Positions 14,345 to 29,060 of a stretch of 64,000 nucleotides of DNA are shown here, one piece after another (positions within the stretch are counted from its first letter, which is position 1; each line of letters opens with the position of its first letter). The notes under the pieces are model-generated. The model was not told the DNA's origin, did no database searches, and saw only the letters and a program-made list of their open reading frames with translations. A program made the position numbers and the translations under genes. This stretch comes from Candidatus Yanofskybacteria bacterium RIFCSPLOWO2_02_FULL_44_18 (GTDB lineage Bacteria; Patescibacteriota; Minisyncoccia; 2-02-FULL-40-12; GWA2-44-9). The DNA is taken from the NCBI GenBank assembly GCA_001794755.1, contig MGKT01000006.1:40700-104699 (forward strand), read 5' to 3'.

Positions 14345-15370
14345 CTAAATGTCTATCAAGGCGTGGTCAAGAGTTCTATCGATTTTCGACATAAGTTCGA
14401 AAAGCTTATGTTTCACGTCCATGTAATCTGAAGGGCTCATTTCCGGTTTGAAGGGGCTACGTTGATGAGGCAAATCCACCAAAATAGACGCCGTCAATCT
14501 TTCGAGAAGATTTAGGGTAATGCACTCGGCCAGCCACGCTTCGGCGAAATAATTACTGCCGGCATTCACAAAGCCTCGCAGCCATCTCAAGCAATGGAAA
14601 AGAAGGGTATCGGCATCAAATTTATCAACCAGATGTAAAACATCATTCCAAATCCAGGCCGCGGGCGGATAAATCGGCCCTCTCTCCACAATCGGCGAGT
14701 TTAGAACATAATAATAATGACTCGAGAATCTGATGTCAGTGTTACCGAAATGGGCGAAAAAGTAAGATGGGACCATCATCGGCTGTCCGGCTTTTTCGAT
14801 TATCCGGTCGCGATATCTGGACAATGTTCTCAACTCATCAGGCGATAATGTCTCGGGTTTGCCCTCTGCGCCGAACCATTTATCAAATCTCTGTCTGAAA
14901 TAATCCGGCGCTGATAACTGCGGCGGTTTAAAATCCTTAAACACAAAATACGTCCGCCAGTAAATCAGCGTGACTTTGGCTATCTCTTCATCGGAAGGCC
15001 GCGCGATTTCTCTGACTGGAGAGATGTTGCTTTCCAATTTCTTGTGAATGACGTAGTCAAAAGCCTGACTATTAAATCTGGTCCCGCCGGCCCGTAAAAC
15101 AGTGGGCGCTCGCAATGCCAGCGATACGTTTTGAGTCTGTCTTATTTTCTCGTACTTCTGCCAGTCAGCCGCCGAATCAAATAAATTAACATCGGCTTCT
15201 CCGGCCACAATTAGAGTAGCGGGATGTCCTCTGTACCGGCCGTGCTTGATAATTTCTCTAAGCTGGCCCTGACCCAGACGCACTTGCCAGCCGGGATTGG
15301 AATTATCTTCCTCAAAATCGGTCGCTGAAATTACCACATTGTACCCTTCTAGCAAATCTTGAGTTTTCAT
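14345..15370 (-). CDS. hypothetical protein (341 aa), no recognisable domain
   Basis: Long ORF with coding-like composition and no motif I can assign. It borders the tRNA-Lys island. Confidence 0.4.
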   Translation of the reverse strand: MKTQDLLEGYNVVISATDFEEDNSNPGWQVRLGQGQLREIIKHGRYRGHPATLIVAGEADVNLFDSAADWQKYEKIRQTQNVSLALRAPTVLRAGGTRFNSQAFDYVIHKKLESNISPVREIARPSDEEIAKVTLIYWRTYFVFKDFKPPQLSAPDYFRQRFDKWFGAEGKPETLSPDELRTLSRYRDRIIEKAGQPMMVPSYFFAHFGNTDIRFSSHYYYVLNSPIVERGPIYPPAAWIWNDVLHLVDKFDADTLLFHCLRWLRGFVNAGSNYFAEAWLAECITLNLLERLTASILVDLPHQRSPFKPEMSPSDYMDVKHKLFELMSKIDRTLDHALIDI

Positions 15371-15482
15371 GTTTCTCCATTCTAAAACAACTGGCGATGA
15401 TAGTAAACAACATTTTCCTCCTTGTCAATATTTAAAAATAATCGGATAGGAAATATAATCCCTGAAGTACATGGGTGGGATT

Positions 15483-15743
15483 ATGAACGACTGGCGCAGA
15501 AGAGAATTGGAAATAATTAAAAATAGATTGCGTCTTGATGGCCATCCGTCACTGGCGGCCATTGAAGCGGAAATTTCAAACATCAGCTACGGCCCGCCGT
15601 TAGACCAAGTCGAGGTAGATATCCTAAAGCACATCCGTATGCTTATCGAAACTTATAGAGCATTGAGGATAAGAAGTAACTGGCAAAACCTGACTGAAGG
15701 CGACAAACAAATGCTCAAAGAATTCCACATTGCCGCCCATTAG
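15483..15743 (+). CDS. hypothetical small protein (86 aa)
   Basis: ORF MNDWRRRELEIIKNRL… preceded by GGTGGGATT (SD-like) and an upstream TATAAT. It is followed by a clean terminator. Confidence 0.4.
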   Translation: MNDWRRRELEIIKNRLRLDGHPSLAAIEAEISNISYGPPLDQVEVDILKHIRMLIETYRALRIRSNWQNLTEGDKQMLKEFHIAAH

Positions 15744-15764
15744 ACCCTAAAGGGTCTTTTTTCG
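15744..15764 (+). terminator. intrinsic terminator of the small + strand ORF
   Basis: GACCCTAAAGGGTC hairpin followed by TTTTTT, directly after the TAG stop. Confidence 0.65.
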
Positions 15765-15844
15765 CCTTTCTCGTCCGGCAGACAACTCCGTTGTCCGCCC
15801 TGCAGGACTCGGTCACGGATAATTTGCTCGTCAGTCACTCGCAA
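15763..15844. repeat. att-like direct repeat copy 3: X arm + tRNA-Lys 3'-end core + Y arm
   Basis: cgcctttctcgtccggcagacaac(t)c(c)gttg + TCCGCCCTGCAGGACTCG + gtcacggataatttgctcgtcagtcactcgcaa. The core is identical to the tRNA-Lys 3' end (19800-19817). The X arm is identical (2 mismatches) to the sequence flanking the tRNA (19769-19799), and the Y arm is identical to 19685-19717. Confidence 0.75.
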
Positions 15845-15853
15845 TGAGAACCG

Positions 15854-15883
15854 AGCCCAGCGTTAATCACGCTGGGCTTTTTG
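15854..15883 (+). terminator. hairpin (9-bp stem) + T-tract overlapping the stop codon of the PEP-utilizing gene; terminator-like on the + strand
   Basis: AGCCCAGCG-TTAATCA-CGCTGGGCT followed by TTTTG. The minus-strand gene's TAA stop sits in the loop. Confidence 0.45.
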
Positions 15884-18800
15884 AATGATGTGAACTACTC
15901 CTTTATTTCCATCTACTTCTACAATGTCCCCGTCTTTAATGAGGTCAGTAGCATTTCCAGTTCCTACTACACAGGGGATGTTCATTTCTCGACTCACGAT
16001 AGCGGCGTGAGACATCATGCCTCCTTGATTGGTAACAATTGCAGAAGCTTTTGAGCAAACGGGCATAAGCTCTGGCGAAGTAGTTTCTGCTATAAGAATA
16101 TCTCCGTTCACCATACTTTCCATTATCTTTTTCAGCCCATCAAAATTTCCATAATCAGCAATAATAACCTTTGCCATGCCTCTAACTTTTCCCTTATTGG
16201 CTGTTTTACCTTTAATTTCAGAGTGGAATTCGGGGGTAACAGTGTCAAATTTAGATACGATTACTTCCGCTTCTTTTCCATTTATATAAGTAAGATTCTC
16301 CCCATCACCAATCATTACATATGCACACTTTCTATCTTCTAAAATTGATGTTGAGACTTTTTGGTTTTCAAACAAATTAAGTAAATCACTCCTACTGTAA
16401 AGCATCAAAGAGTCCACTTCTACTCTAAATTGCTTTTGGAGTATGCTTAATATGGAAAAAAGAGCACTTTCGCTACCAAAGAATAATTTATTAAGATATT
16501 CACGTCCCGAATTTTTGATGCGCTCAAAATGCTTTAGATTCTCACTAGTTATTTCATCATTAAGTGAATACTGGTAAGCATCATCTGTAGCAAAGAACTC
16601 TGTTCTTCGATAAAAATGAAAGAGAGTTGACAAATTGATTAAAAACTCTTCCAAGTCTGCTCTAGTCAGCCTATCCTTTTTAGAGATTTTCTCAAAGTGT
16701 TCTGCTGTCTTCTTTTTATATGCTTCAAAACCATTACTATACTCATCAAATTTTTCCTTACTGCTGTATAGTTCTACCCCTTCTATTAGCGTATCTTTTA
16801 TAGATTGTTTTGGTAGATAAGTAGTCCAGATTCCATGTGCCAACATAGAAAACCCTTTAATCTTTTTGTATTCAGTCATAAAGATATCCGAAATGATATA
16901 AGGCATTCCCCCTACTTGGAAAAGTCTCTGATAATAATTGGGATCTTTAATGCCTAGATTATTTTCAATTATCTTTATAACACCAGTATCCGCATTCACT
17001 TCCACTAAGTCTCCATCCTTGAGTACTTTTGTTGCAATTTTTGTTCCTATAATGCAGGGTTTTCCCATCTCTCTTGCTGTAATGGCGGCGTGACTAGTGA
17101 CACCTCCTTCGTCAGTGACAAAAGCTGATGCTTTCTTCATGGCTGGTAAGAAGTCTGGGTTTGTCATCGGAGTCACCATAATGTCGCCTTCGTTTACTCT
17201 ATTGATATCAGTTTTAGTTAAGACTATTACCACTTTTCCTTTTGAGATTCCCTTATGAGCAACATTACCCCTTATCTCATTTGTTCCACTTATAACCTCA
17301 TCTTTTTCAATTTCAATACCAAGTTCTCGTTCGACCTGGATTAATGTCCTGTTATAGTAAAATTTATGGTCGTGAAAGATAAAATGTTCATCTCGTTTTC
17401 TCAACTCGTCTACAGTCGGTAACATACCTAAAATCTCATTGATGCTTAAAATCTTGGAGAAAGGAATTGCATAATCGGGGACAATCATCGGTATTGCTTT
17501 TTCAAATGTGGCGTTGGCATTGTAAAAGAAGTCTTCTGTTGATTTTCTTTGCTCTAGGCAGGCTTCTTTAGCTTTTGATGGCGCATCTTCAATTGCAGGC
17601 ACAAAATATATTATTGCGAATAAACTTTGAGTTCTGGCAAGCTTTTCGAAGAAAACTTCAAGGTTTTTCTTATTGGGTTTACTCAACAGCTGGCTTTCAA
17701 GCTTTTTTATTTCCTTTAATGCTTTCTGATAATTTTCAGTGATTTCTTCTACCCAGCCACTTCTAGCCAATTTTTTCTTAATAGCTTTAGTGGCATCAGC
17801 AAAAATCTTCTCATCTTCATATACTGTAAGCATTCCATTCGCTCGCTCGTAGACCAGTCTATCTGTAGTAACTCCTATCCAATTTTCAAGATATTCCGTA
17901 TCGCTTTTCTCCCAAAATTCGATAGCTGCTACGCATACATCTCTACTAACATTTTTTTTAAATAATGATTTCTTTTCACTGAACTCACCAATTATAGATA
18001 AATCTTCATCGATTAAGATATTATTTTCTTCTTGGAATTTCTCTAGATCTTTCCCAGTCGTTATATTCCCTTCAAAGAAAATAAAGAAGTCGTTTCGATT
18101 ATCAAGAGTTTCTTTATTTGGGATTTTATTGGAAAGCAATTCCTTAATTGATATGACATTTGCGTATTCCGCCAAATCAGGATATTGAAATTTAATTGCT
18201 CCAATTAGGGCATCTCCATGTTCATACTCGCCTGCCTGTGAGAGTTCTCTTAATTTGTAAGATTTTTCTATAATCGCTTTTGGAAGTTCCTTATTTGTGC
18301 TATTCCCAAATTGAACTATCACAGGCAAAAATCCCCAAAAATCCACGGAAGTTTTGTAAAAATCTTTTATATTTGTGTTTCGATAATTTATAGCAAATTG
18401 ATGCAGTTTCTTATAATCTTCCTCAAACTTTTTAGCTAAAGGTCTAAATTTGTCAGGATTATTTATAAAGAAATCAAAAAGCGGCTTAATGGCGGTATCC
18501 GGATTGTTGATGTCGTAGTAAACACTTGTATTGCCATCACTCGTTTTTATAAATAATGGATTAAATCTAGTTGAACCTTGTAGGAGTTTATTGAAAGCAT
18601 CATATTCGCCCTCCCACCAGTATTCCATAGTTACGAGGGAGAGCTTCCTGGTAAAGAATTTTTTGAAATGTCTTATGGGAGTTTTATTGGAAAGAGTGGT
18701 AATAGGTCTGCTCTGAGTTATGTAAAATTTACCATCCTCATATGCCCACTCAATATCACAAGGAAATCCGTAATGGTTTTCAATCTTAATTACAAGGTCA

Positions 18801-19630
18801 GCTAATTCCATAATCTGCGACACATTTAACACCTGTGATGAAGCTTTTGGCTCTGGTATTTCCTTCCACTCATTTTCTCCCCTTCTCGATTTATACAGAC
18901 CTCTCCTTTGAGTATTTACTGTTGTATCAATTATTTGTCTCGACTCCTTTTCAACAACATAAGAGTCGGGAGTTATAGAACCAGATACAATAGCCTCCCC
19001 AAGCCCAAAGCCAGCTTCGATGATGAGTTGATTTCTATCCTCCGTAATTGGATGGACCGAAAACGCTATTCCAGATACTTCCGACTGAACCATTTTCTGC
19101 ACCACAACGGCTACGGAAATACCCGTGCCGTGAAGTTCTTTTTCGAAGCGATAAAAGATTGCTCTGGGAGTAAAGAGAGAAGACCAGCATTTCTTAACTT
19201 TATCGAGTAAGTCATCTTCCGTGGTATTTAAATAACTCTCTAACTGACCTGCCCAGGCATGCTCCGCTCCGTCCTCTGCTGTGGCAGATGAGCGAACGGC
19301 CACAAACTCCGCCCGGAGTGCCTTAGATGCCCTTAAAATCTCGTCAGAAATGTCTTGCGGCAATTCTTCATTCTCAATTAGCCCTCGTATCTTTTCGGAA
19401 GCGCCCTCTACGGTGTGTATTGCTTTGTGGTCTACAGTCTTGAGTATCGCCTCAATTTCTTGAGCTAAATCTGTTTCGTGTAAAAATCGGTCAAAGGTTC
19501 CAGAGAGCACAACAAAACCATCTGGCACAGGAAGTCCTGCTTGTGTCATCTCACCAAGAGATGAACCTTTACCACCAGCGAGAAGTGAGTCGGTCTTCTT
19601 TATTTCATTAAAATTTTTAATCAGTTCCAT
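15863..19630 (-). CDS. PEP-utilizing enzyme family giant protein: PPDK-N (ATP-grasp nucleotide-binding) domain + two phosphohistidine swivel domains, no PEP/pyruvate TIM barrel (rifampin-phosphotransferase-like architecture, duplicated His domain)
   Basis: 1255 aa. The N-terminal ~310 aa match the PEP synthase/PPDK ATP-binding domain (…VAVRSSATAEDG…, …CDIEWAYEDGKFYITQSRPIT). Two PEP-utilizing 'mobile' domains carry the catalytic His motifs GGVTSHAAITAREMGKPCIIG (~aa 830) and GGMMSHAAIVSREMNIPCVVG (~aa 1200). An SD-like AAGGGATT precedes the ATG. AT content is higher than that of neighbouring genes. Confidence 0.8.
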   Translation of the reverse strand: MELIKNFNEIKKTDSLLAGGKGSSLGEMTQAGLPVPDGFVVLSGTFDRFLHETDLAQEIEAILKTVDHKAIHTVEGASEKIRGLIENEELPQDISDEILRASKALRAEFVAVRSSATAEDGAEHAWAGQLESYLNTTEDDLLDKVKKCWSSLFTPRAIFYRFEKELHGTGISVAVVVQKMVQSEVSGIAFSVHPITEDRNQLIIEAGFGLGEAIVSGSITPDSYVVEKESRQIIDTTVNTQRRGLYKSRRGENEWKEIPEPKASSQVLNVSQIMELADLVIKIENHYGFPCDIEWAYEDGKFYITQSRPITTLSNKTPIRHFKKFFTRKLSLVTMEYWWEGEYDAFNKLLQGSTRFNPLFIKTSDGNTSVYYDINNPDTAIKPLFDFFINNPDKFRPLAKKFEEDYKKLHQFAINYRNTNIKDFYKTSVDFWGFLPVIVQFGNSTNKELPKAIIEKSYKLRELSQAGEYEHGDALIGAIKFQYPDLAEYANVISIKELLSNKIPNKETLDNRNDFFIFFEGNITTGKDLEKFQEENNILIDEDLSIIGEFSEKKSLFKKNVSRDVCVAAIEFWEKSDTEYLENWIGVTTDRLVYERANGMLTVYEDEKIFADATKAIKKKLARSGWVEEITENYQKALKEIKKLESQLLSKPNKKNLEVFFEKLARTQSLFAIIYFVPAIEDAPSKAKEACLEQRKSTEDFFYNANATFEKAIPMIVPDYAIPFSKILSINEILGMLPTVDELRKRDEHFIFHDHKFYYNRTLIQVERELGIEIEKDEVISGTNEIRGNVAHKGISKGKVVIVLTKTDINRVNEGDIMVTPMTNPDFLPAMKKASAFVTDEGGVTSHAAITAREMGKPCIIGTKIATKVLKDGDLVEVNADTGVIKIIENNLGIKDPNYYQRLFQVGGMPYIISDIFMTEYKKIKGFSMLAHGIWTTYLPKQSIKDTLIEGVELYSSKEKFDEYSNGFEAYKKKTAEHFEKISKKDRLTRADLEEFLINLSTLFHFYRRTEFFATDDAYQYSLNDEITSENLKHFERIKNSGREYLNKLFFGSESALFSILSILQKQFRVEVDSLMLYSRSDLLNLFENQKVSTSILEDRKCAYVMIGDGENLTYINGKEAEVIVSKFDTVTPEFHSEIKGKTANKGKVRGMAKVIIADYGNFDGLKKIMESMVNGDILIAETTSPELMPVCSKASAIVTNQGGMMSHAAIVSREMNIPCVVGTGNATDLIKDGDIVEVDGNKGVVHIIQKAQRD

Positions 19631-19663
19631 AATCCCTTATCATCGACGTTAGCGACCCTATGT

Positions 19664-19717
19664 TTGTCCGCCCTGCAGGACTCGGTCACGGATAATTTGC
19701 TCGTCAGTCACTCGCAA
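19664..19717. repeat. att-like direct repeat copy 2: tRNA-Lys 3'-end core + Y arm
   Basis: TTGTCCGCCCTGCAGGACTCG + gtcacggataatttgctcgtcagtcactcgcaa, identical to 15791-15844. Confidence 0.75.
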
Positions 19718-19740
19718 ATTTCCTTGACCACGGCTCGCGG

Positions 19741-19760
19741 TTGCAATCTGCTGATTGCAA
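19741..19760. repeat. perfect palindrome TTGCAATC-TGCTG-ATTGCAA in the spacer between att copies
   Basis: 7-bp inverted arms (TTGCAAT/ATTGCAA) around a 6-nt centre. It is the only palindrome in the 50-bp spacer between repeat copies 1 and 2. Confidence 0.5.
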
Positions 19761-19799
19761 CATCGCTCCGCCTTTCTCGTCCGGCAGACAACTTCGTTG

Positions 19800-19872
19800 T
19801 CCGCCCTGCAGGACTCGAACCTGCGACCCTCTGCTTAAAAGGCAGGTGCTCTACCAACTGAGCTAAGGGCGG
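19800..19872 (-). tRNA. tRNA-Lys (anticodon UUU)
   Basis: Minus-strand sequence CCGCCCT-TA-GCTC-AGTTGGTA-GAGC-A-CCTGC-CTTTTAA-GCAGA-GGGTC-GCAGG-TTCGAGT-CCTGC-AGGGCGG-A. The acceptor stem (7 bp), D arm, anticodon arm and T arm all form. The anticodon loop CU-UUU-AA has U33 and A37. CCA is not encoded. Confidence 0.85.
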
Positions 19873-19903: not shown

Positions 19904-19937
19904 TGAAAACCAACAAAAAGGCACCTTGTTAGGTGCT
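19904..19937 (-). terminator. intrinsic terminator of the 289-aa gene, upstream of tRNA-Lys
   Basis: On the minus strand GCACC-TAACAA-GGTGC is followed by CTTTTTGTTGGTTTT. Confidence 0.55.
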
Positions 19938-20807
19938 TTACGACAAAAGAATCGCCCGCCTTGCTTCCCTGATTAATTCATCGTTTATAACTTTTTGGCA
20001 TTGCGGCGCTTCTGCAAAGTTCTTAGCCCGTTCTTGCTCATACCGCTTTTCCTCGTTTCTAAAATCGTTCAGTAAATCAAGATAATGATAATACTTCGCA
20101 ACACGCTCTGAGGTATCGCGATGCAACAGAACAAGTGTGATTTTATCTTCCTCATTAGTCCATTTTACGCCTACGTCACCCCTAACAATTCCTGCATGAG
20201 GAAGGGTGAACCTATTCTTGAATTCATTGTTGAATGCCTCTTCCTCCCTTTCTTCCTCCATATTCGATGCCGGAACGACTACTTGGCTATGGTGAAGGTA
20301 ATAATAATAATACCCATTATGAACTTGAGAATAAGAACCGGGATTTGACCGGATGTCGCATCGTGAGATAAAATCTGCCCATTTTAAAACACTGTCGAAA
20401 AATGGCTTCAAGGCATTAGGCAATGAATCCAGAGATAATTGTTGGCCGAGACATATTATCAATGACTGACTGCTGGTTTTTTGCTCAAGTATGGGCCGAA
20501 GCTCATTTAGAATCCTATCCAGAATATCCGGCCTTCTAGTACACGCGATCCGAAATCTTTTATCTGTCATTCTGCATCTTAGACGAAAGCGAATCGCTTT
20601 TAAACCTGTTCCAACATGCCAAGTAATCCATATCACTGATTCATATATTTTACCTTTAATAAATGATTCAATGTCGATTGTGTACGCATCTTCAATGGGC
20701 GGAATCACTGGACAGGCTTCCAAGATATCAATGGATGGGATTTCACCATTTACACCTTGAGCATCATACCTTCTTCTCCAGCCGTATGTTATGGGAACAC
20801 TACACAT
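19938..20807 (-). CDS. hypothetical protein (289 aa), no recognisable domain
   Basis: Long ORF that includes an acidic stretch (MEEEREEEAF) and a Tyr run (HNGYYYYYLHH). It sits between the HD hydrolase and tRNA-Lys. Confidence 0.4.
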   Translation of the reverse strand: MCSVPITYGWRRRYDAQGVNGEIPSIDILEACPVIPPIEDAYTIDIESFIKGKIYESVIWITWHVGTGLKAIRFRLRCRMTDKRFRIACTRRPDILDRILNELRPILEQKTSSQSLIICLGQQLSLDSLPNALKPFFDSVLKWADFISRCDIRSNPGSYSQVHNGYYYYYLHHSQVVVPASNMEEEREEEAFNNEFKNRFTLPHAGIVRGDVGVKWTNEEDKITLVLLHRDTSERVAKYYHYLDLLNDFRNEEKRYEQERAKNFAEAPQCQKVINDELIREARRAILLS

Positions 20808-20877
20808 ATACTCCTCTCAATGAACTAGGGATTATATCTCACAATATATGCAAAACGTCAAGGCGGTGGGACAATGA

Positions 20878-22128
20878 TTATTTTTTAAGCACTGACATTA
20901 TCTTGTCGGCATTTTCAAATATTAAATTCCTGTCGCCGATGATGCAGACCCTTACCGCAAGATAGTCTTCGAGTTCTGATTTCATGGACTCAAAATATTC
21001 CTTATGGGTTTTTTTCAGCGACATAACTTCGCCGTTATCGTGGTATACAATATCCTGCGGTTCAAATCGCCAAGGATTGAGAATCGGCACAATCACAATC
21101 TTGAAGGAATCAGCGCCGATAATTTTCGAAATTTGGCTCTCCAATTTTTCCAGATTCGCCGGTGAATTTCTTTTTGCGAATTTCTCAAAAAAATTAACAT
21201 CTTCGCCGACTACTTTGATATTTTTCCCGGCAATTCTTTCTCTTATCCTTCGGCTTTTCAATCTCACCACAAGCCCTGTCCGGGGCAGATTTCTTTCAAC
21301 CAGGGCTTGATATTGCCAGCGAAGAACGGCATCTTCGCTTAAAAATATTCTGGCCATAATCTGATGGTCGTTCATTTTCCAAAGATCAGGCGGTTTTATT
21401 TTTTCCTTCAGAATCAGTCTGGCAATTATTTTTTGCATGAATCTCTGCGAAATCAGAGTGGATTTATGCAGATACACTTCCTTGTACATATAGATATACA
21501 GTCTTTGGATTTGTTTTGCCGCTTCCAACGCTTTTTTATCAATGACCATATTGCCGTCCATAAAAGTAGAATAATCCAATATTGTTTCGACATCCGGCCT
21601 CTGGCCGAAACCGGTATGATATGTGTCCCGCTCAAGATAATCGAGCTTATCCGTGCCGATATTTCTGTCCATTACAATCCGATAAAGGCTATTCTTGCGA
21701 TTAAATAGTGTCAGAATAAAATTATAATCCCCGCCTGATTTTGTAATCGCTGTTTTTAGAGACTTGATGATTCTGGCCCCGTTTTTGTCGTGATCATACG
21801 GAGTTAATTCCTCGATAACATGGGAAAACGGGCCGTGGCCGATGTCATGAAGCAGACCGAAAAGAGAGATATTCAACGCTTCTTTATGGTTGAGAATATA
21901 ATCCGTAATCAGGCGCTGGCAAAAATTCCTAGTTTTATGATAAACGCCCAAAGCATGCTCAAACCGGTTATGGGTCGCGCCGGGGAAAACGCTCAAAGTC
22001 GTGCCCAGCTGGCCGACATGCAAAAGCCGCTGAAATAGCGGATGATTTATTATCGGTAATATGTTCCTGACGTCGATGCTTACTCCCGGCGGTATTCGAA
22101 TATACTTCTTGTAGTGTCCGGACTCCAT
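20878..22128 (-). CDS. HD-domain dNTP triphosphohydrolase-like protein (Dgt/SAMHD1 family)
   Basis: 416 aa with the motifs …HNRFEHALGVYH…, LLHDIGHGPFSH and …DKLDYLERDTYHTG…, which are diagnostic of the dGTPase/SAMHD1 HD subfamily. Confidence 0.75.
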   Translation of the reverse strand: MESGHYKKYIRIPPGVSIDVRNILPIINHPLFQRLLHVGQLGTTLSVFPGATHNRFEHALGVYHKTRNFCQRLITDYILNHKEALNISLFGLLHDIGHGPFSHVIEELTPYDHDKNGARIIKSLKTAITKSGGDYNFILTLFNRKNSLYRIVMDRNIGTDKLDYLERDTYHTGFGQRPDVETILDYSTFMDGNMVIDKKALEAAKQIQRLYIYMYKEVYLHKSTLISQRFMQKIIARLILKEKIKPPDLWKMNDHQIMARIFLSEDAVLRWQYQALVERNLPRTGLVVRLKSRRIRERIAGKNIKVVGEDVNFFEKFAKRNSPANLEKLESQISKIIGADSFKIVIVPILNPWRFEPQDIVYHDNGEVMSLKKTHKEYFESMKSELEDYLAVRVCIIGDRNLIFENADKIMSVLKK

Positions 22129-22171: not shown

Positions 22172-23740
22172 CTACTCTTTTTTCTTCAAAGCATCCTGAA
22201 GCAGTTTTCTCAATTCATCGGTATTGGTTTCCTTTTTCTCTTTGTCCTTCTGGCTTTTTTCAACCCGGCGGCCTTTAAAATCAACGGCCCCTCTGTTTAA
22301 GTCTCGCAATGAGGCGGACCTGGAGCCGACATTGGCTTCTTGTATTCGGCTGCGGCGGTCGGCATCCCTGGCCGGTGGACGCATCGGGGCCGGCGGGCGG
22401 ATCGGACTTCTCTGGGGCGTAAACTGCCTTTCTCTTTCCATATTTTCTTGGGCCACCCATCCCATCCAGTCCGCAGTATGTTTTTCGACAATTTCTTTCG
22501 GCGTCGTAAACTGTTCGCGCGATGCGGAGACAATTTCTTTTTTGAAATTTACTTCCGGTTTCGGAAACGGCGGCAATGTCCCGGCTGAAAACGGCTTAGA
22601 GGAGATACCATCAATCATCAGTCTTAAATATATGTTGTATTTTCCCAAATTGACCAAATCCGTCATTGTAAAATCAGGTTCATACCATCTTTCCAGAAAT
22701 TCGGCGTCCTCCGCTCCGACGCGGAATGTGACTAAAGTGCCGACGTTGCCGAATACGGCATCTCTGACGACTTCTTCCATTTGAGTAATATACTGATGGC
22801 CCAGCGTCAGGCATAAATGGTATTTTCTGGCCTCGGATAATATGTTTACGAACGATTCGGTGGCAAAATTTTGAAACTCATCGACATAGAGATAAAAATC
22901 AGGCCGCTGATTTTCAGGCACATCAACGCGCGACATGGCTGCTAGCTGTAGTTTAGTAATCAAAAGCGCTCCCAAAAGACGCGAAGCATCCTCGCCAATT
23001 TCGCCTTTTGACACGTTTACAATTAATATCTTGCCCTCATCCATAATCTTGCGCATGTCGATTTTTGAACGCGGCTGGCCGATGATATTCCTGATAACGT
23101 TGTTGGAACTGAATTGGCCAACCTTATTTTGAATCGCGGCTGTGGCTTCGGTCGCAAACTTATCCGCATATTTCGCGAATTCATCAATCCAGAAACCTTT
23201 GACAATCGGGTCTTTGATGTTGGATACGACCTCTTTTCGATATTCCTTGTTGGAAAGCATCCGGTTGATGCCGAGAATGGTGGAATTGGGATACTCAAGC
23301 AAGGCCAGTATCGTGTTATTTAAAATATATTCCATTCGGCCCGACCAGGCATCCACCCATATTTTCTTGAAAACACCCAGAAGACCGCTGGCCACGAGAT
23401 GGCGATATTCAAAAGGGACTTTCTCCATGACGTTGAACGCGATTGGAAAATCAAGGTCATTGGGTTGGAAATATATAACGTCTTTGATTCTCTCTTCTGG
23501 CACGAAATCAAGAAGGTCAATCGCTGCGTCTCCGTGAGGATCAATAAAGGCAACGCCGCGTCCGGCTTCGATGTCCTGTATGGCCATGTTCTTCATGAGC
23601 TCAGATTTGCCCATACCGGTCGAGCCGATAACGTAAACGTGGCGGCGGCGGTCATCCGGTTTTACGCCAAATCGAACTTTCTTGTTCCGAAAATTTGTCT
23701 CTCCCAAAAATACGATATCTCTTTCGTCTGTTTGTCTCAT
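22172..23740 (-). CDS. VirD4/TraD/TraG-like type IV secretion coupling-protein ATPase homologue (T4SS DNA-transfer domain)
   Basis: 522 aa with Walker A VIGSTGMGKSE, …FIDPHGD…, Walker B-like …LYVDEFQNF…, and a long charged, disordered C-tail. Confidence 0.65.
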   Translation of the reverse strand: MRQTDERDIVFLGETNFRNKKVRFGVKPDDRRRHVYVIGSTGMGKSELMKNMAIQDIEAGRGVAFIDPHGDAAIDLLDFVPEERIKDVIYFQPNDLDFPIAFNVMEKVPFEYRHLVASGLLGVFKKIWVDAWSGRMEYILNNTILALLEYPNSTILGINRMLSNKEYRKEVVSNIKDPIVKGFWIDEFAKYADKFATEATAAIQNKVGQFSSNNVIRNIIGQPRSKIDMRKIMDEGKILIVNVSKGEIGEDASRLLGALLITKLQLAAMSRVDVPENQRPDFYLYVDEFQNFATESFVNILSEARKYHLCLTLGHQYITQMEEVVRDAVFGNVGTLVTFRVGAEDAEFLERWYEPDFTMTDLVNLGKYNIYLRLMIDGISSKPFSAGTLPPFPKPEVNFKKEIVSASREQFTTPKEIVEKHTADWMGWVAQENMERERQFTPQRSPIRPPAPMRPPARDADRRSRIQEANVGSRSASLRDLNRGAVDFKGRRVEKSQKDKEKKETNTDELRKLLQDALKKKE

Positions 23741-24987
23741 ATTGGCAGATCAGCCGGCGCCTCCCCTTTCTTGGCCTCAATCCTGGGCAACGTCGCTGTT
23801 TTTACTCCAACATCGGGTATATGGAATATCGACGCCAATTCTTCCGTGTTTAAAACATAAGATTTATCCAAAAATTTTCTTTTTTTGTATCCTTTGTATA
23901 ACTCCACTTTATGATTATACTCTCTGCTTTTTTTAAATACCCAATCAAAATCCGCCGAGATTTTCTTAAAACCGTTGAGGCTTAAGGACGAGAACTGCTT
24001 CAACGTGCCGGATATAACGGCCGGGCGGCTTTTGTTGAATGTCTCCACCGGAGATATGTATACCATTCTTAGGGTGGATTTAAATCCCAATTTTGTGATA
24101 TTTCTTTCAATCGCCTTCAATGCCTCCAGCTTTCCGGGTGTTAATTTCATGCTTGAGAATTCATCCGCTTTCTTATCATCTTTACCCCCAGCCCCGAACA
24201 AAGAATCAATGAAGTCAAAAAACACATTGAATATGTTTTTCTTTACTTCTTCCTTCTTGCCCGTCAGCTTGTCAATTACTTTCTGGGAGTCTTTAACCCA
24301 GTCTTCTCCTTTTTTTGACTGGATTAGTATTTGTAACGCCAGACACTCGCCGGGTCCAAGCAGACTCATGCCTTCAACCAGCGAAGCCAAGGGATCAATT
24401 CTTTGATATTCGTCTTTTCCAGGATTTTTTTCCTCAAAATCGACATAGGTTCGAATCGGATAGGCATCGGGTTTTTCCAGCGTGAATTCACCGACGGCTA
24501 TGTCTGTTTTGTCATCGGGAAGCGTATCGGGATACGCGGCCATATAATCATCAGCGAGGTAAATTTCAGCTTCCGGAAACTGGGCGTATATTGATGACTC
24601 GACCAGATTCCGATGCGCTTCAAGAGTTCTGATAAAAAAATGTATTTCTCCGCCCATGCTCACCAATTCCAAGGAAAACCAATCGCCGACTTTGCCTTTC
24701 CAAAATCCTTCAACCCACTTTTTTCTGACACCGCCCGGAGCGCTGTGCAAAGCGGCAAAAATCTGCTCCATGGCCAAAGGGCTGCGTTTTGATTCTCGGG
24801 GTAATTTCAATTCAAGCATTATCCACTTGAGATTGGATAGGTATATGGATTTTTTGTAATCCTTGAACATGTCAAAGACGACCAAAAACAAAATCACGGG
24901 CGCAATCGCCCACCAATATGAGAACATTGTTAAAAAAACGTTTCCGAGAATATCCCAAACGGGACCTAAAAAGTCAGTGACTAGCAT
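23737..24987 (-). CDS. membrane protein co-encoded with (4-nt overlap) the VirD4-like ATPase; function unknown
   Basis: 416 aa with two N-terminal TM helices and then a soluble domain. Its stop and the ATPase start overlap by 4 nt. Confidence 0.45.
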   Translation of the reverse strand: MLVTDFLGPVWDILGNVFLTMFSYWWAIAPVILFLVVFDMFKDYKKSIYLSNLKWIMLELKLPRESKRSPLAMEQIFAALHSAPGGVRKKWVEGFWKGKVGDWFSLELVSMGGEIHFFIRTLEAHRNLVESSIYAQFPEAEIYLADDYMAAYPDTLPDDKTDIAVGEFTLEKPDAYPIRTYVDFEEKNPGKDEYQRIDPLASLVEGMSLLGPGECLALQILIQSKKGEDWVKDSQKVIDKLTGKKEEVKKNIFNVFFDFIDSLFGAGGKDDKKADEFSSMKLTPGKLEALKAIERNITKLGFKSTLRMVYISPVETFNKSRPAVISGTLKQFSSLSLNGFKKISADFDWVFKKSREYNHKVELYKGYKKRKFLDKSYVLNTEELASIFHIPDVGVKTATLPRIEAKKGEAPADLPI

Positions 24988-25080: not shown

Positions 25081-26139
25081 TTAGAGTTCCTTGAGTTTAT
25101 ACGTTCCGTCTTCCTGCTTGTGAAAGATGTCCGTATCCTGGAGATTGAGCAAAATCGTATTTTCCTTAACCATGCGCATGTCTTTCACCTTGGCCACAAG
25201 CTGGGCCTTTGGCATCGGTTTTTGAGCGTTCCGAAGAATATCCACCAGTACGTCTTTCACGGTGCCCGCCTTATATCCCCAATCCGAAAGAGCGTACATG
25301 CCGCGGCCGACCAGAATAAAACGATTATCTTTAATCAGTTCATTATGAACAGTCTGGACGTTGGCCCGACGGTTATCAAATCTGGATGCATTTATTAATC
25401 TGGCAATATCAGAAAAATGGCGAGGCTGATTTTCTTTCTTTAAAACCAGATAGGCTTTATCCCTGACGCCTTTGGGCTGTATTTCCGGCCAAGCCGCAAG
25501 ACCGATTTCATTAAAAATATTTTTATCGATTTTTTTAGACACGTTTAAGGCCAGATTGACATGATTTTCATTTAACGGCTGGCTGTCAAATCCGGACACA
25601 TTCGTCTTTCTGGCCAAAGACAGCAGTTCTTCTTTTGACATAACATTGTTGTGACGAGCCAGAGTTGAAATTAGGCTCTCGGTCATAGCCTTAAATCCCT
25701 TGGAATGTTCACCGCTTAATGCCCAGAAAGCGTGATATGTATCATTTTCTGAAAAACGTTCTAATTTGTTACTAAGGGTGAGTATAAAAACAAGACCGGA
25801 ATTTTGGGCCGTTTCTTTTTCTGAGCCGGTAGCAATGCCGAAAAGGCCGCTTTCTTTTATAACGCCCTGGTGATCGTCGATTATATTCTTGACGGTTTCA
25901 ATGTGAAACTGCGCGTCGGGCAGGGCAGAAATGTTCTTTGCAAGCTGTTTTAACGTAGCTTCTTCAATCTGGCGAACTCTTTCTCTTGTGATTTTATAAC
26001 TGGCTCCGATTGACTCCAGGGTTTCTTTTTTCCCTTTTATAAGACCAAAACGGCGAGACAGAATGTCTCGATTTCGAGGTGAAAGGGTTTTTAAGACGGC
26101 CTTTACCGTCTTATTTATTTGTGAGAAATTACTTGCCAT
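25081..26139 (-). CDS. sigma-70 region-4 (HTH) domain protein with a long C-terminal domain of unknown function
   Basis: 352 aa. The N-terminus LSPRNRDILSRRFGL…ETLESIGASYKITRERVRQIEEATLKQL is a canonical sigma-70 region 4/LuxR-like HTH. The remaining ~280 aa match nothing I can assign. Confidence 0.55.
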   Translation of the reverse strand: MASNFSQINKTVKAVLKTLSPRNRDILSRRFGLIKGKKETLESIGASYKITRERVRQIEEATLKQLAKNISALPDAQFHIETVKNIIDDHQGVIKESGLFGIATGSEKETAQNSGLVFILTLSNKLERFSENDTYHAFWALSGEHSKGFKAMTESLISTLARHNNVMSKEELLSLARKTNVSGFDSQPLNENHVNLALNVSKKIDKNIFNEIGLAAWPEIQPKGVRDKAYLVLKKENQPRHFSDIARLINASRFDNRRANVQTVHNELIKDNRFILVGRGMYALSDWGYKAGTVKDVLVDILRNAQKPMPKAQLVAKVKDMRMVKENTILLNLQDTDIFHKQEDGTYKLKEL

Positions 26140-28424: not shown

Positions 28425-29060
28425 CTACACGTCAGACACCTTGGTTTCCGTACTCGCCCCGTCGGCGATCCGGATCAACGACTGGAGAAGTTTCTGGATG
28501 ACATCGGCCGGCGCCACGAGTGTCAGTTTGAACTCGAGCTTTTTTCGTGGCGGTTCCCGCACCGGCTCGGTTTTGTCTTCCCACGGCCGGCGCATGATTT
28601 GCATCGCATGGTCGGCAAGGTCGACGAACTCGAACTCACCCTTCTCGAACAGGTCGATCAACGACTGGCTGATGGAGGTTGAGCTCCCATTTCCAGCCTT
28701 TGTTCCGACCCAGACGATCCTTGCACCTCCTTCTTTCTTGATGCGAAGATTCGATACGAAATCCTGGTCGTTGGAAACGATGATGATCTCGTTCGCTTTC
28801 GTTTCGTTGATGAGCGCGTAAATTACCGCGTCATCGGCACCCGGCTCATCCACCGGAATCACTTCAAACCCTGCCGTCCGCAGGTGTTTGCCGAATGCTT
28901 TTTCACTGGCCCTATTTAGGACGTATGTCATGCGTTCAAGTTCCGCCGATTTGCCGAGTCCCCTGAGCAACGCAGCCAGCTCACCGAAGTTGAAAACCCC
29001 GATGCCAAGAGCCCGCCGCATCCATGAGAGCGAGTTGCCATCCACGAAAACTGATTTCAT
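28425..29060 (-). CDS. NYN-domain (LabA/PIN-like) putative ribonuclease with a ~70-aa C-terminal extension, in a high-GC islet
   Basis: 211 aa. The N-terminus MKSVFVDGNSL…IIVSNDQDF matches the NYN/LabA signature (vFvDgeN … D). A strong SD TAGGAGCCGAT precedes the ATG. The region 28375-29345 is about 56% GC. Confidence 0.65.
   Translation of the reverse strand: MKSVFVDGNSLSWMRRALGIGVFNFGELAALLRGLGKSAELERMTYVLNRASEKAFGKHLRTAGFEVIPVDEPGADDAVIYALINETKANEIIIVSNDQDFVSNLRIKKEGGARIVWVGTKAGNGSSTSISQSLIDLFEKGEFEFVDLADHAMQIMRRPWEDKTEPVREPPRKKLEFKLTLVAPADVIQKLLQSLIRIADGASTETKVSDV

What the first reader, a model, noticed from the sequence alone, without database searches (positions are those of the whole stretch)
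19938..22128. SAMHD1/Dgt-type HD dNTPase plus an orphan 289-aa protein immediately upstream of the tRNA-Lys insertion hot spot
The HD protein has the full dGTPase/SAMHD1 motif set (FEHALGVYH, LLHDIGHGPFSH, DYLERD). Bacterial homologues of this family have been shown to act as anti-phage dNTP-depleting enzymes, although many are housekeeping enzymes.

Here the gene sits in an accessory neighbourhood. On one side are the tRNA-Lys islet, a VirD4-like ATPase and unknown proteins. On the other is an uncharacterised 289-aa protein (acidic patch, YYYYY run) with its own terminator. A defence or mobile-region role is therefore plausible.
Basis: partly seen in the sequence, partly recalled or inferred. 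Interest (0 to 1): 0.5.

Follow-up and report, generated by a model that had tools for sequence, protein, structure and literature searches.

The report
Conserved HD phosphohydrolase plus small-family neighbour
The HD gene is an ordinary, vertically inherited SAMHD1/EF1143-type nucleotide phosphohydrolase of a Yanofskybacteria (CPR) genome, with no sign that it is a phage-defence gene, and its 289-aa neighbour belongs to a small, fast-diverging Parcubacteria-only protein family of unknown function that sits in a variable slot around tRNA-Lys.

Summary
Both ORFs exist exactly as described: HD 20878..22128(-), 289 aa 19938..20807(-), with all quoted motifs, the YYYYY run and a terminator.

**HD protein.** It is SAMHD1/EF1143-type (Pfam HD + HD_assoc_2; Foldseek TM about 0.7 to BT4208, EF1143 and SAMHD1). 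It is not Dgt-type, and it is not in the defensive dGTPase family (PADLOC dGTPase E=1.8e-4 over about 50 residues). In Yanofskybacteria relatives it lies in a conserved block, SecD-SecF-sigma/HARE-DUF8128-VirD4-like-HD-tRNA-Lys...AspRS. Its pairwise-identity clusters match those of its neighbours, which indicates vertical descent. It is dispensable: five syntenic loci fetched through the VirD4-like gene and one fetched through the 289-aa family lack it. In three of these, VirD4-like runs into tRNA-Lys with no HD gene between.

**VirD4-like ATPase.** It is a core Patescibacteria gene, paired with DUF8128 in every fetched locus that holds upstream sequence. It is not a marker of a mobile element here.

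**289-aa protein.** It is not an orphan. A full HMMER search finds about 28 full-length relatives (267-316 aa, 21-32% identity), the named ones from Paceibacterota and Portnoyibacteriota. None has a Pfam, PDB, PADLOC or PHROG match. Its closest homologue lies in the same tRNA-Lys slot in a genome that lacks HD, so the two genes are not partners.

**Verdict.** The tRNA-Lys slot is truly variable, but no defence or mobile role is supported. Low interest.

The parts
20878..22128 (-). SAMHD1/EF1143-family HD phosphohydrolase (416 aa; HD + HD_assoc_2), a probable dNTP triphosphohydrolase
   Evidence: Pfam HD 34 bits and HD_assoc_2 46.7 bits, both above cut-off. PDB sequence hits: 2hek 1.6e-29, 2q14 7.6e-28, EF1143 (2o6i) 1e-21, SAMHD1 about 1e-19. 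AF2 model pLDDT 82.7. Foldseek TM 0.71-0.73 to BT4208 and 0.72 to EF1143. The residues equivalent to the SAMHD1 catalytic set are invariant in 22 relatives.
19938..20807 (-). 289-aa member of an uncharacterised, fast-diverging Parcubacteria-restricted protein family
   Evidence: The full HMMER search gives 34 hits at E<=1e-3, about 28 of them full-length (267-316 aa, 21-32% identity). Alignment A2 shows shared motifs (GEIP, LPP, NDxRLKxQY, DGYY, FDP, VLPH, YYGY, a K/E-rich C-terminal helix, and an ...LLS end). There are no Pfam, NCBIfam, PADLOC, PHROG, PDB or phage matches.
20808..20877 (-). HD-289 intergenic spacer with a promoter-like TTGACG-19 nt-TATAAT and a GAGAGGAG Shine-Dalgarno sequence
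   Evidence: Read directly from the sequence. The 19-nt spacer falls outside the 16-18 nt range of the scan, so this site was not scored. This is an inference only.
19921..19936 (-). Intrinsic-terminator-like hairpin plus T-run after the 289-aa gene
   Evidence: 6-bp stem (4 GC pairs), 4-nt loop, tail CTTTTTGTTG.
19799..19872 (-). tRNA-Lys(UUU), the conserved landmark of the variable slot
   Evidence: ARAGORN. A tRNA-Lys(UUU) follows HD or VirD4-like in L002, L004, L005, L006, L007, L085-L088, L090, L096, L098, L102, L105, L148 and L176.
22172..24987 (-). Conserved DUF8128 (23737..24987) and VirD4-like ATPase (22172..23740) pair upstream of HD. This is context, not part of a mobile element.
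   Evidence: Pfam. The pair is present in all 74 fetched loci that hold enough upstream sequence; the other 6 of the 80 are cut off just upstream of the VirD4-like gene. It is embedded in SecD-SecF-sigma synteny.

Best explanation
These are two unrelated, separately inherited genes.

(1) The 416-aa gene encodes a SAMHD1/EF1143-family (COG1078-type) metal-dependent HD phosphohydrolase. By homology it most likely hydrolyses dNTPs to deoxynucleoside plus triphosphate. It would then serve nucleotide-pool control or salvage in a CPR bacterium that cannot make nucleotides de novo. It is an old chromosomal resident of Yanofskybacteria, inherited vertically next to the DUF8128/VirD4-like pair and tRNA-Lys. 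It is non-essential and has been lost from the locus in several lineages. The catalytic site is intact, but the SAMHD1 guanine-nucleotide allosteric site 1 is not conserved, so regulation probably differs from SAMHD1.

(2) The 289-aa gene is its own transcription unit. It belongs to a small, rapidly diverging, Parcubacteria-only family of soluble proteins: a globular N-terminal part of about 230 aa with conserved Trp, Asp and His positions, then a Lys/Glu-rich C-terminal helix. It is cargo of the variable slot around tRNA-Lys. My best guess, held with low confidence, is an accessory role tied to genome conflict or host interaction, not core metabolism.

Shown: family membership, synteny, vertical inheritance, and lack of linkage between the two genes. 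Inferred: dNTPase activity, the physiological role, and everything about the biochemical function of the 289-aa protein.
For: **HD family.** Searches place it in the SAMHD1/EF1143 family. R55, H58, H94, D95, H98, H103, D160, K161, Y164, D168 and Y219 (equivalent to SAMHD1 R164, H167, H206, D207, H210, H215, D311, K312, Y315, D319 and Y374) are 22/22 invariant. H113, the H233 equivalent inferred through the fungal SAMHD1 (9mr6) and 2hek alignments, is His in 14 and Glu in 8 of 22. The D137 equivalent is N or H and the R145 equivalent is L in 20/22.

**Synteny.** The block RNase_H_2/Cas4-like-SecD-SecF-Sigma70_r4/HARE-DUF8128-VirD4-like-HD occurs in 10 distinct loci, with AspRS-PBP-MraY-like-FtsW beyond the slot.

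**Vertical descent.** The nearest-neighbour pairs are the same for HD, VirD4-like and SecD: WIN-L001, L002-L089, L005-L087, L085-L098 and L007-L088-L105. HD GC3 is 0.475 against a local mean of 0.487.

**Housekeeping contexts.** NUDIX follows HD in L002/L004 and overlaps its stop codon by 4 nt in L106. Distant CPR homologues sit between GyrB and NusG-L11-Tmk, and next to IMPDH.

**Dispensability.** L102, L148 and L176 run VirD4-like to tRNA-Lys without HD. L097 and L099, whose VirD4-like proteins are 85-89% identical to that of HD-bearing L087, also lack it.

**289-aa gene.** The family is real. Members lie in unrelated contexts, with no HD called or matched in any of those loci. The closest homologue sits in the same slot without HD. 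GC3 is 0.376, about 1.8 sd below the local mean. No relative's locus holds a copy at tblastn E<=1e-3, and a profile search of 2.4 Mb of fetched loci found no further members. dN/dS is 0.21 between two close copies, based on only 9 substitutions.
Against: No enzyme of this exact subclade has been assayed. The closest structures, BT4208 and Aq_1910, are structural-genomics entries without a known activity, so 'dNTPase' rests on EF1143 and SAMHD1 at about 20% identity. The equivalents of SAMHD1 R366 and Q375 are Tyr and Leu, so substrate handling may differ.

HD lies at the edge of a variable, indel-prone region and is present at the locus in only 4 of the 9 syntenic loci that were fetched without reference to it. 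That pattern is also typical of accessory and defence genes.

For the 289-aa protein there is no structural or functional evidence at all. The single-sequence AF2 model was unusable (pLDDT 36). Several family motifs are degenerate in this copy (FDP to FTLP, VLPH to VLLH, YYGY to YYHY).
Confidence: 0.7

Rival explanations
1. One reading: the HD protein is an anti-phage dNTP-depleting enzyme, like SAMHD1 or the defensive dGTPases, carried in a defence or mobile island at tRNA-Lys, possibly working with the 289-aa protein.
For: The family is related to SAMHD1 and the catalytic site is intact. The gene borders a variable slot that in relatives holds selfish-element genes (Y1_Tnp, LAGLIDADG_3, a GIY-YIG-like ORF). 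HD is missing from the locus in several close relatives. Tal et al. speculate that all-dNTP enzymes such as EF1143 might also defend.
Against: The PADLOC dGTPase model matches only the HD motif (19 bits), and no neighbour matches a defence system. Clustering congruent with SecD and VirD4-like, together with native composition, indicates vertical descent, not transfer. The att-like repeats place the integrated islet on the other (3') side of the tRNA. Distant homologues sit among ribosomal, gyrase and nucleotide-metabolism genes. The 289-aa family never co-occurs with HD elsewhere.
Confidence: 0.1
2. HD works together with the adjacent DUF8128/VirD4-like ATPase module, for example by processing nucleotides derived from DNA that the module handles. 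On this reading the conserved adjacency reflects function, not just shared ancestry.
For: The adjacency VirD4-like then HD is kept in more than 10 Yanofskybacteria loci on the same strand, with only a 43-nt gap in the window.
Against: The gap ranges from 43 nt to about 1.5 kb, with unrelated ORFs inserted. About 70 other loci carrying DUF8128/VirD4-like have no HD within 6 kb. Distant CPR HD homologues lack the pair. Three lineages lack HD at the locus but keep the pair.
Confidence: 0.08
3. The 289-aa ORF is a decaying or non-functional remnant of an inserted gene.
For: Several family motifs are degenerate in this copy. GC3 is atypical. It is absent from the fetched relatives' loci, although the closest relative's contig (L001) ends just after HD. 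The closest homologue's copy in L176 is N-terminally truncated by an in-frame stop codon.
Against: It has a full-length open frame with a Shine-Dalgarno sequence, a promoter-like site and a terminator. It aligns end to end with the family (residues 8-287 against P0122; profile score 233 bits).
Confidence: 0.1

Closest known systems
EF1143 (Enterococcus faecalis dNTP triphosphohydrolase; PDB 2o6i/3irh/4lrl) and human SAMHD1
   Same: Same HD + HD_assoc_2 architecture and the same fold (Foldseek TM about 0.72 and 0.65-0.70). The sequence aligns directly (1e-21 and about 1e-19). The metal-binding and catalytic residues are conserved.
   Different: Only about 20% identity, and shorter (416 aa against about 450-626). 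It has no SAM domain. The SAMHD1 allosteric-site-1 residues D137 and R145 are replaced by N/H and L, and the R366 and Q375 equivalents are Y and L. Activity has not been tested.
BT4208 (PDB 2q14) and Aquifex Aq_1910/O67745 (PDB 2hek), uncharacterised HD phosphohydrolases from structural genomics
   Same: These are the best sequence matches (profile E-values 9e-39 and 4e-34) and the best structural matches (TM 0.71-0.79). They are of similar length, 370-410 aa.
   Different: 21-24% identity. Neither has a known function, so they add no functional information.
Defensive dGTPases of Tal et al. (Sp-dGTPase and others) and E. coli Dgt (TIGR01353; HD + HD_assoc PF13286)
   Same: HD superfamily. The proposed chemistry is the same: removal of triphosphate from dNTPs.
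   Different: A different subfamily. TIGR01353 scores 20 bits against a cut-off of 152, and PADLOC dGTPase scores 19 bits over about 50 residues. Tal's proteins cannot be aligned directly to SAMHD1, whereas this one can. It is not located next to restriction-modification or other defence genes.

Membership tests
SAMHD1/EF1143-type HD phosphohydrolases (Pfam HD + HD_assoc_2; COG1078-like) | An HD domain followed by the HD_assoc_2 region, both above the Pfam gathering scores | tested here: met
   HD 34.3 bits (cut-off 22). HD_assoc_2 46.7 bits (cut-off 23.1).
SAMHD1/EF1143-type HD phosphohydrolases (Pfam HD + HD_assoc_2; COG1078-like) | The H...HD...D metal site plus the catalytic and substrate residues (SAMHD1 R164, H167, H206, D207, H210, H215, H233, D311, K312, Y315, D319, Y374) | tested here: met
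   All are present in the window protein. All but the H233 equivalent (H in 14, E in 8) are invariant in 22 relatives. The H233 equivalence is inferred through the fungal SAMHD1 and 2hek alignments. SAMHD1 numbering was derived from the 6tx0 alignment offset.
SAMHD1/EF1143-type HD phosphohydrolases (Pfam HD + HD_assoc_2; COG1078-like) | Overall fold similar to solved family members | tested here: met
   The AF2 model (pLDDT 82.7) gives Foldseek probability 1.00 and TM 0.62-0.74 to 2q14, 4lrl, 9mr6, 2hek and SAMHD1.
SAMHD1/EF1143-type HD phosphohydrolases (Pfam HD + HD_assoc_2; COG1078-like) | Guanine-nucleotide allosteric site 1 (SAMHD1 D137, Q142, R145) | tested here: not met
   Only the Q142 equivalent is conserved. 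The D137 equivalent is N/H and the R145 equivalent is L in 20/22. This site defines SAMHD1-style regulation, not family membership.
SAMHD1/EF1143-type HD phosphohydrolases (Pfam HD + HD_assoc_2; COG1078-like) | dNTP triphosphohydrolase activity | not testable with these tools
   This needs an enzyme assay.
Dgt-type dGTP triphosphohydrolase (TIGR01353; HD + HD_assoc PF13286) | A score above the TIGR01353 cut-off, and the Dgt C-terminal HD_assoc domain | tested here: not met
   TIGR01353 scores 20.4 bits against a cut-off of 152.35, covering residues 51-108 only. There is no PF13286 hit.
Defensive dGTPase (PADLOC dGTPase model; Tal et al.) | A full-length match to the defence dGTPase profile, or at least 45% identity to Sp-dGTPase | tested here: not met
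   PDLC02374 gives E=1.8e-4 and 19 bits over residues 52-107 only.
Defensive dGTPase (PADLOC dGTPase model; Tal et al.) | Co-location with known defence systems, or carriage on mobile elements | tested here: not met
   No defence-system hit among 8 neighbours. Synteny is conserved and clustering is congruent with neighbours. Distant homologues sit in housekeeping contexts. No genome-wide defence-score analysis was done.
Orphan (taxonomically restricted single-genome) gene, for the 289-aa ORF | No detectable homologue in large protein collections | tested here: not met
   The word-indexed search found only the protein itself. Full HMMER against 1.84 billion representatives found 34 hits at E<=1e-3, 10 of them at E<=1e-10.

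The most novel reading that the evidence does not exclude
The 289-aa family could be a previously unrecognised, fast-evolving accessory factor of Parcubacteria that repeatedly settles near the chromosomal VirD4-like ATPase gene and tRNA-Lys. In the window it lies 1.4 kb from the VirD4-like gene, in L176 about 1 kb, and in the separate L092 context 2.7 kb. It might act as a conflict gene (defence, anti-defence or host interaction) tied to that DNA-handling module. Separately, the HD enzyme might double as a CPR antiviral dNTPase.
Probability: 0.1. Interest if true: 0.5.

Novelty: new member of a known kind. Interest (0 to 1): 0.2.

Why it matters
It matters only modestly. The result removes a candidate 'defence island' from the list. 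It shows that in Patescibacteria a VirD4-like ATPase next to a gene is not evidence of a mobile element. It documents a tRNA-Lys-centred variable slot in Yanofskybacteria. It also defines a small uncharacterised protein family that a word-indexed search had wrongly left as an orphan. If the HD enzyme is a dNTPase, it bears on how nucleotide-auxotrophic CPR cells manage salvaged deoxynucleotides.

Tried and rejected
- The word-indexed homology search for the 289-aa protein, with the single sequence and with the family profile, returned only the protein itself plus one other sequence. This would have wrongly confirmed 'orphan'. The full HMMER search overturned it.
- Single-sequence AF2 of the 289-aa protein gave pLDDT 36 and was unusable, so no fold search was made on it. 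I then spent the second and last structure job on HD, so no alignment-based model of the 289-aa family could be made.
- The genome-contig scan with the HD alignment was saturated by the generic HDIGHGPF motif. It gave only 5 CPR loci among 80. Synteny was therefore built from the look-up of encoding contigs and a metagenome scan seeded with the VirD4-like neighbour.
- The search for related loci with the 289-aa family alignment failed because no stretch was conserved enough.
- A relation between the 289-aa family and the LAGLIDADG_3 protein next to its closest homologue was rejected. One member had a weak PHROG LAGLIDADG hit, but hhalign gave probability 0.1%.
- No phage carries the 289-aa protein. 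HD has only 22-34% identity partial hits, in Listeria, Enterococcus and Staphylococcus phage records among those listed.
- The idea that HD and the 289-aa gene lie inside the tRNA-integrated islet was rejected. The repeats of the tRNA 3' end bound only the PEP-synthase-like gene, on the other side of the tRNA.
Full report
**Observation**

The window comes from a Candidatus Yanofskybacteria genome. The only exact database match of the 289-aa protein is named 'Candidatus Yanofskybacteria bacterium GW2011_GWA2_44...'.

All quoted motifs are present, as are the YYYYY run and the acidic patch. A hairpin plus T-run terminator follows the 289-aa stop codon. tRNA-Lys(UUU) lies 66 nt further on the same strand. 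The 70-nt spacer between the two genes holds TTGACG-19 nt-TATAAT and a GAGAGGAG ribosome-binding site (read). The 289-aa gene therefore looks like a transcription unit of its own.

**What the HD protein is**

- Pfam gives HD plus HD_assoc_2, both above threshold.
- The Dgt model TIGR01353 reaches only 20 bits against a cut-off of 152.
- The PADLOC defensive dGTPase model matches about 50 residues around the HD motif, at E=1.8e-4.
- By sequence it matches Aq_1910 (2hek, 1.6e-29), BT4208 (2q14), EF1143 (1e-21) and SAMHD1 (about 1e-19).
- An AF2 model built on 22 relatives (pLDDT 82.7) superposes on BT4208, EF1143 and SAMHD1 with TM 0.62-0.74.
- I mapped SAMHD1 numbering through the HMMER alignment. 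The equivalents of R164, H167, H206, D207, H210, H215, D311, K312, Y315, D319 and Y374 are invariant in all 22 relatives. The H233 equivalent, inferred through the fungal SAMHD1 and 2hek alignments, is His in the window protein and His or Glu in relatives.
- The allosteric-site-1 residues D137 and R145 are replaced by N/H and L, and the R366 and Q375 equivalents are Y and L.

The protein is therefore a catalytically competent member of the SAMHD1/EF1143 family. It is not a Dgt. Its regulation probably differs from that of SAMHD1.

**Synteny and inheritance of HD**

More than 1,100 homologues were found. The top 120 are all about 420 aa and 57-79% identical, and many come from named Yanofskybacteria or Paceibacterota genomes.

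Ten distinct loci fetched through HD share one order: RNase_H_2/Cas4-like, SecD, SecF, Sigma70_r4/HARE-HTH, DUF8128, VirD4-like, HD. A variable stretch follows, then AspRS, a PBP, an MraY-like gene and FtsW. A tRNA-Lys(UUU) follows HD in nine of them, on either strand.

Fetching loci through HD is circular as a test of HD conservation. I therefore fetched 80 metagenome loci with a profile of the VirD4-like neighbour.

- The DUF8128/VirD4-like pair is present in all 74 loci that hold enough upstream sequence. The other six are cut off just upstream of the VirD4-like gene.
- HD follows only in the subset with Yanofskybacteria-type synteny, and not in all of those. It is present in L096, L098, L105 and L106. 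It is absent in L097, L099, L102, L148 and L151.
- L102 and L148 run VirD4-like, tRNA-Lys, AspRS with no HD. In L102 the tRNA follows VirD4-like directly. In L148 three small unrelated ORFs lie in between.
- L097 and L099 are closer to HD-bearing L087 (VirD4-like 85-89% identity) than HD-bearing L005 is. Their lack of HD at the locus is therefore recent, by loss or rearrangement.

Pairwise identity matrices give the same nearest-neighbour groups for HD, VirD4-like and SecD. Correlations between HD and its neighbours (Pearson 0.28-0.69) mostly overlap those among the neighbours themselves (0.50-0.84). HD's GC3 is native, at 0.475 against a local mean of 0.487.

I conclude that HD was in the slot in the common ancestor, was inherited vertically, and is dispensable.

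**Clues to the role of HD**

- A NUDIX hydrolase follows HD in L002/L004 and overlaps its stop codon by 4 nt in L106.
- The 37-38% identical homologues in other CPR lineages lie between GyrB and NusG-L11-thymidylate kinase (L009, Terrybacteria) and between MetE and a vitamin transporter plus IMPDH (L008).
- None of the eight window neighbours scanned matches a known defence system. The VirD4-like hits to mad8 and HerA are generic P-loop similarity.
- Tal et al. report that their defensive dGTPases could not be aligned directly to SAMHD1, and that homologues below 45% identity to Sp-dGTPase are not defence-associated.

These points favour a nucleotide-pool housekeeping or salvage enzyme. Defence is not excluded, but nothing specific supports it.

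**The VirD4-like ATPase**

It is in fact one of the most conserved genes here: 62-89% identity in the first set of relatives, always paired with DUF8128. Quinonero-Coronel et al. count 5,713 VirD4-like homologues in 2,918 Patescibacteria genomes, only 148 of them near virB4 (PMC12102498). It is a chromosomal core gene.

**The 289-aa protein**

- It has no match in Pfam, NCBIfam, PADLOC, PHROGs or the PDB.
- The word-indexed search found only the protein itself.
- The exhaustive HMMER search found 34 proteins at E<=1e-3. About 28 align end to end, at 267-316 aa and 21-32% identity.
- Their alignment shows invariant Trp and Pro positions and the shared motifs GEIP, LPP, NDxRLKxQY, DGYY, FDP, VLPH and YYGY. 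A Lys/Glu-rich C-terminal helix follows, and the sequences end in ...LLS.
- Named members come from Paceibacterota and Portnoyibacteriota.
- Neither the profile nor any member matches a known family, solved structure, defence model or phage.
- Contexts differ from genome to genome: a glycosyltransferase cluster (L092), TrmD and a lyase (L093), RelA/SpoT and ParAB (L094), and Peptidase_M3 and AlaRS (L178). No HD gene is called or matched in any of them.
- The closest homologue (about 30% identity) lies in the same slot of another Yanofskybacteria-type genome (L176). The order there is SecD, SecF, sigma, DUF8128, VirD4-like, tRNA-Lys, LAGLIDADG_3, the family member on the opposite strand, two unknown genes, AspRS. 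That genome has no HD at the locus.
- A profile search of all 176 fetched loci (2.4 Mb) found no further members.
- The window copy has low GC3 (0.376, about 1.8 sd below the local mean) and several degenerate motifs, but it is full-length.
- Two near-identical copies give dN/dS of about 0.2, from only nine substitutions.

The gene is therefore real. It belongs to a small, fast-diverging lineage-specific family, is cargo of the variable slot, and is not a partner of HD. Its biochemical function is unknown.

One weak lead remains. Three of the seven contexts, two of them independent, lie within 3 kb of a VirD4-like gene.

**The slot itself**

Between VirD4-like or HD and AspRS, relatives carry NUDIX, a histidine phosphatase, an IS200-like Y1 transposase, LAGLIDADG_3, a GIY-YIG-like ORF, a PaaX-like protein, a cobalamin adenosyltransferase, an EamA fragment and unknown genes.

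In the window, the tRNA 3' end is repeated twice downstream. A 54-nt repeat (15791-15844 = 19664-19717) and a 49-nt repeat (15763-15811, about equal to 19769-19817) bracket only the low-GC 1255-aa PEP-synthase-like gene. The integrated islet therefore lies on the 3' side of the tRNA, while HD and the 289-aa gene lie on the 5' side.

**Verdict**

The Dgt type, the 'orphan' label, the VirD4-like gene as a mobility marker, and the defence role do not hold. This is a new member of a known enzyme family plus a member of an uncharacterised small family. Interest is low.

Noticed in passing
window 15763-19817 (gene 15863..19630, - strand): A 1255-aa protein with PPDK_N and two PEP-utilizers swivel domains, an architecture like PEP synthase or rifampicin phosphotransferase. 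Its GC3 is 0.33 against a local mean of 0.49. It is bracketed by exact or near-exact repeats of the tRNA-Lys 3' end (15791-15844 = 19664-19717; 15763-15811 about equal to 19769-19817). It is absent from every relative's locus. It looks like an integrase-less islet integrated at the tRNA 3' end.
   Followed up: partly
window 28425..29060 (-): A NYN-domain 211-aa gene with GC3 0.68, about 3 sd above the local mean. It lies between SecD and the RNase_H_2/Cas4-like gene and has no counterpart in any syntenic relative. It is probably a second small insertion.
   Followed up: partly
window 22172..24987 (-); loci L096-L175: The DUF8128 protein and the VirD4-like ATPase form an invariant gene pair in all 74 fetched Parcubacteria loci that hold enough upstream sequence. 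PHROG 5156 (824 aa) covers both as if fused. The pair's function is unknown, and it is not next to other T4SS genes here.
   Followed up: partly
window 14345..15370 (-) and 15471..15743 (+): A 341-aa and a 90-aa ORF between the islet and AspRS have no hit in Pfam (the 341-aa also none in NCBIfam or PADLOC; both none in PHROGs). Neither has a counterpart in relatives' slots. No exhaustive homology search was run on them.
   Followed up: no
L002:11333-11866, L004:8322-8879, L106:9628-10158: A NUDIX hydrolase gene lies immediately downstream of the HD gene in at least two Yanofskybacteria lineages. In L106 it overlaps the HD stop codon by 4 nt. This hints at a shared role in nucleotide-pool maintenance.
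   Followed up: partly
L176:8001-9809, L091: In the genome that carries the closest homologue of the 289-aa protein, a free-standing LAGLIDADG_3 homing-endonuclease-like gene sits directly downstream of tRNA-Lys, convergent with the family member. The family member there is N-terminally truncated by an in-frame stop codon in L176, but it is full-length in L091.
   Followed up: partly
window 25081..26139 (-): A 352-aa protein combines an N-terminal sigma-70 region 4 with a HARE-HTH domain. It has no sigma regions 2 or 3. It is conserved at this position in all Yanofskybacteria relatives, and its N-terminus also matches the MzaA defence-associated sigma model.
   Followed up: no
window 38000-64000: This half of the window has clearly lower GC (0.33-0.41) than the first half (about 0.42-0.50). 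The cause, whether a surface-polysaccharide-type cluster or a foreign segment, was not examined.
   Followed up: no
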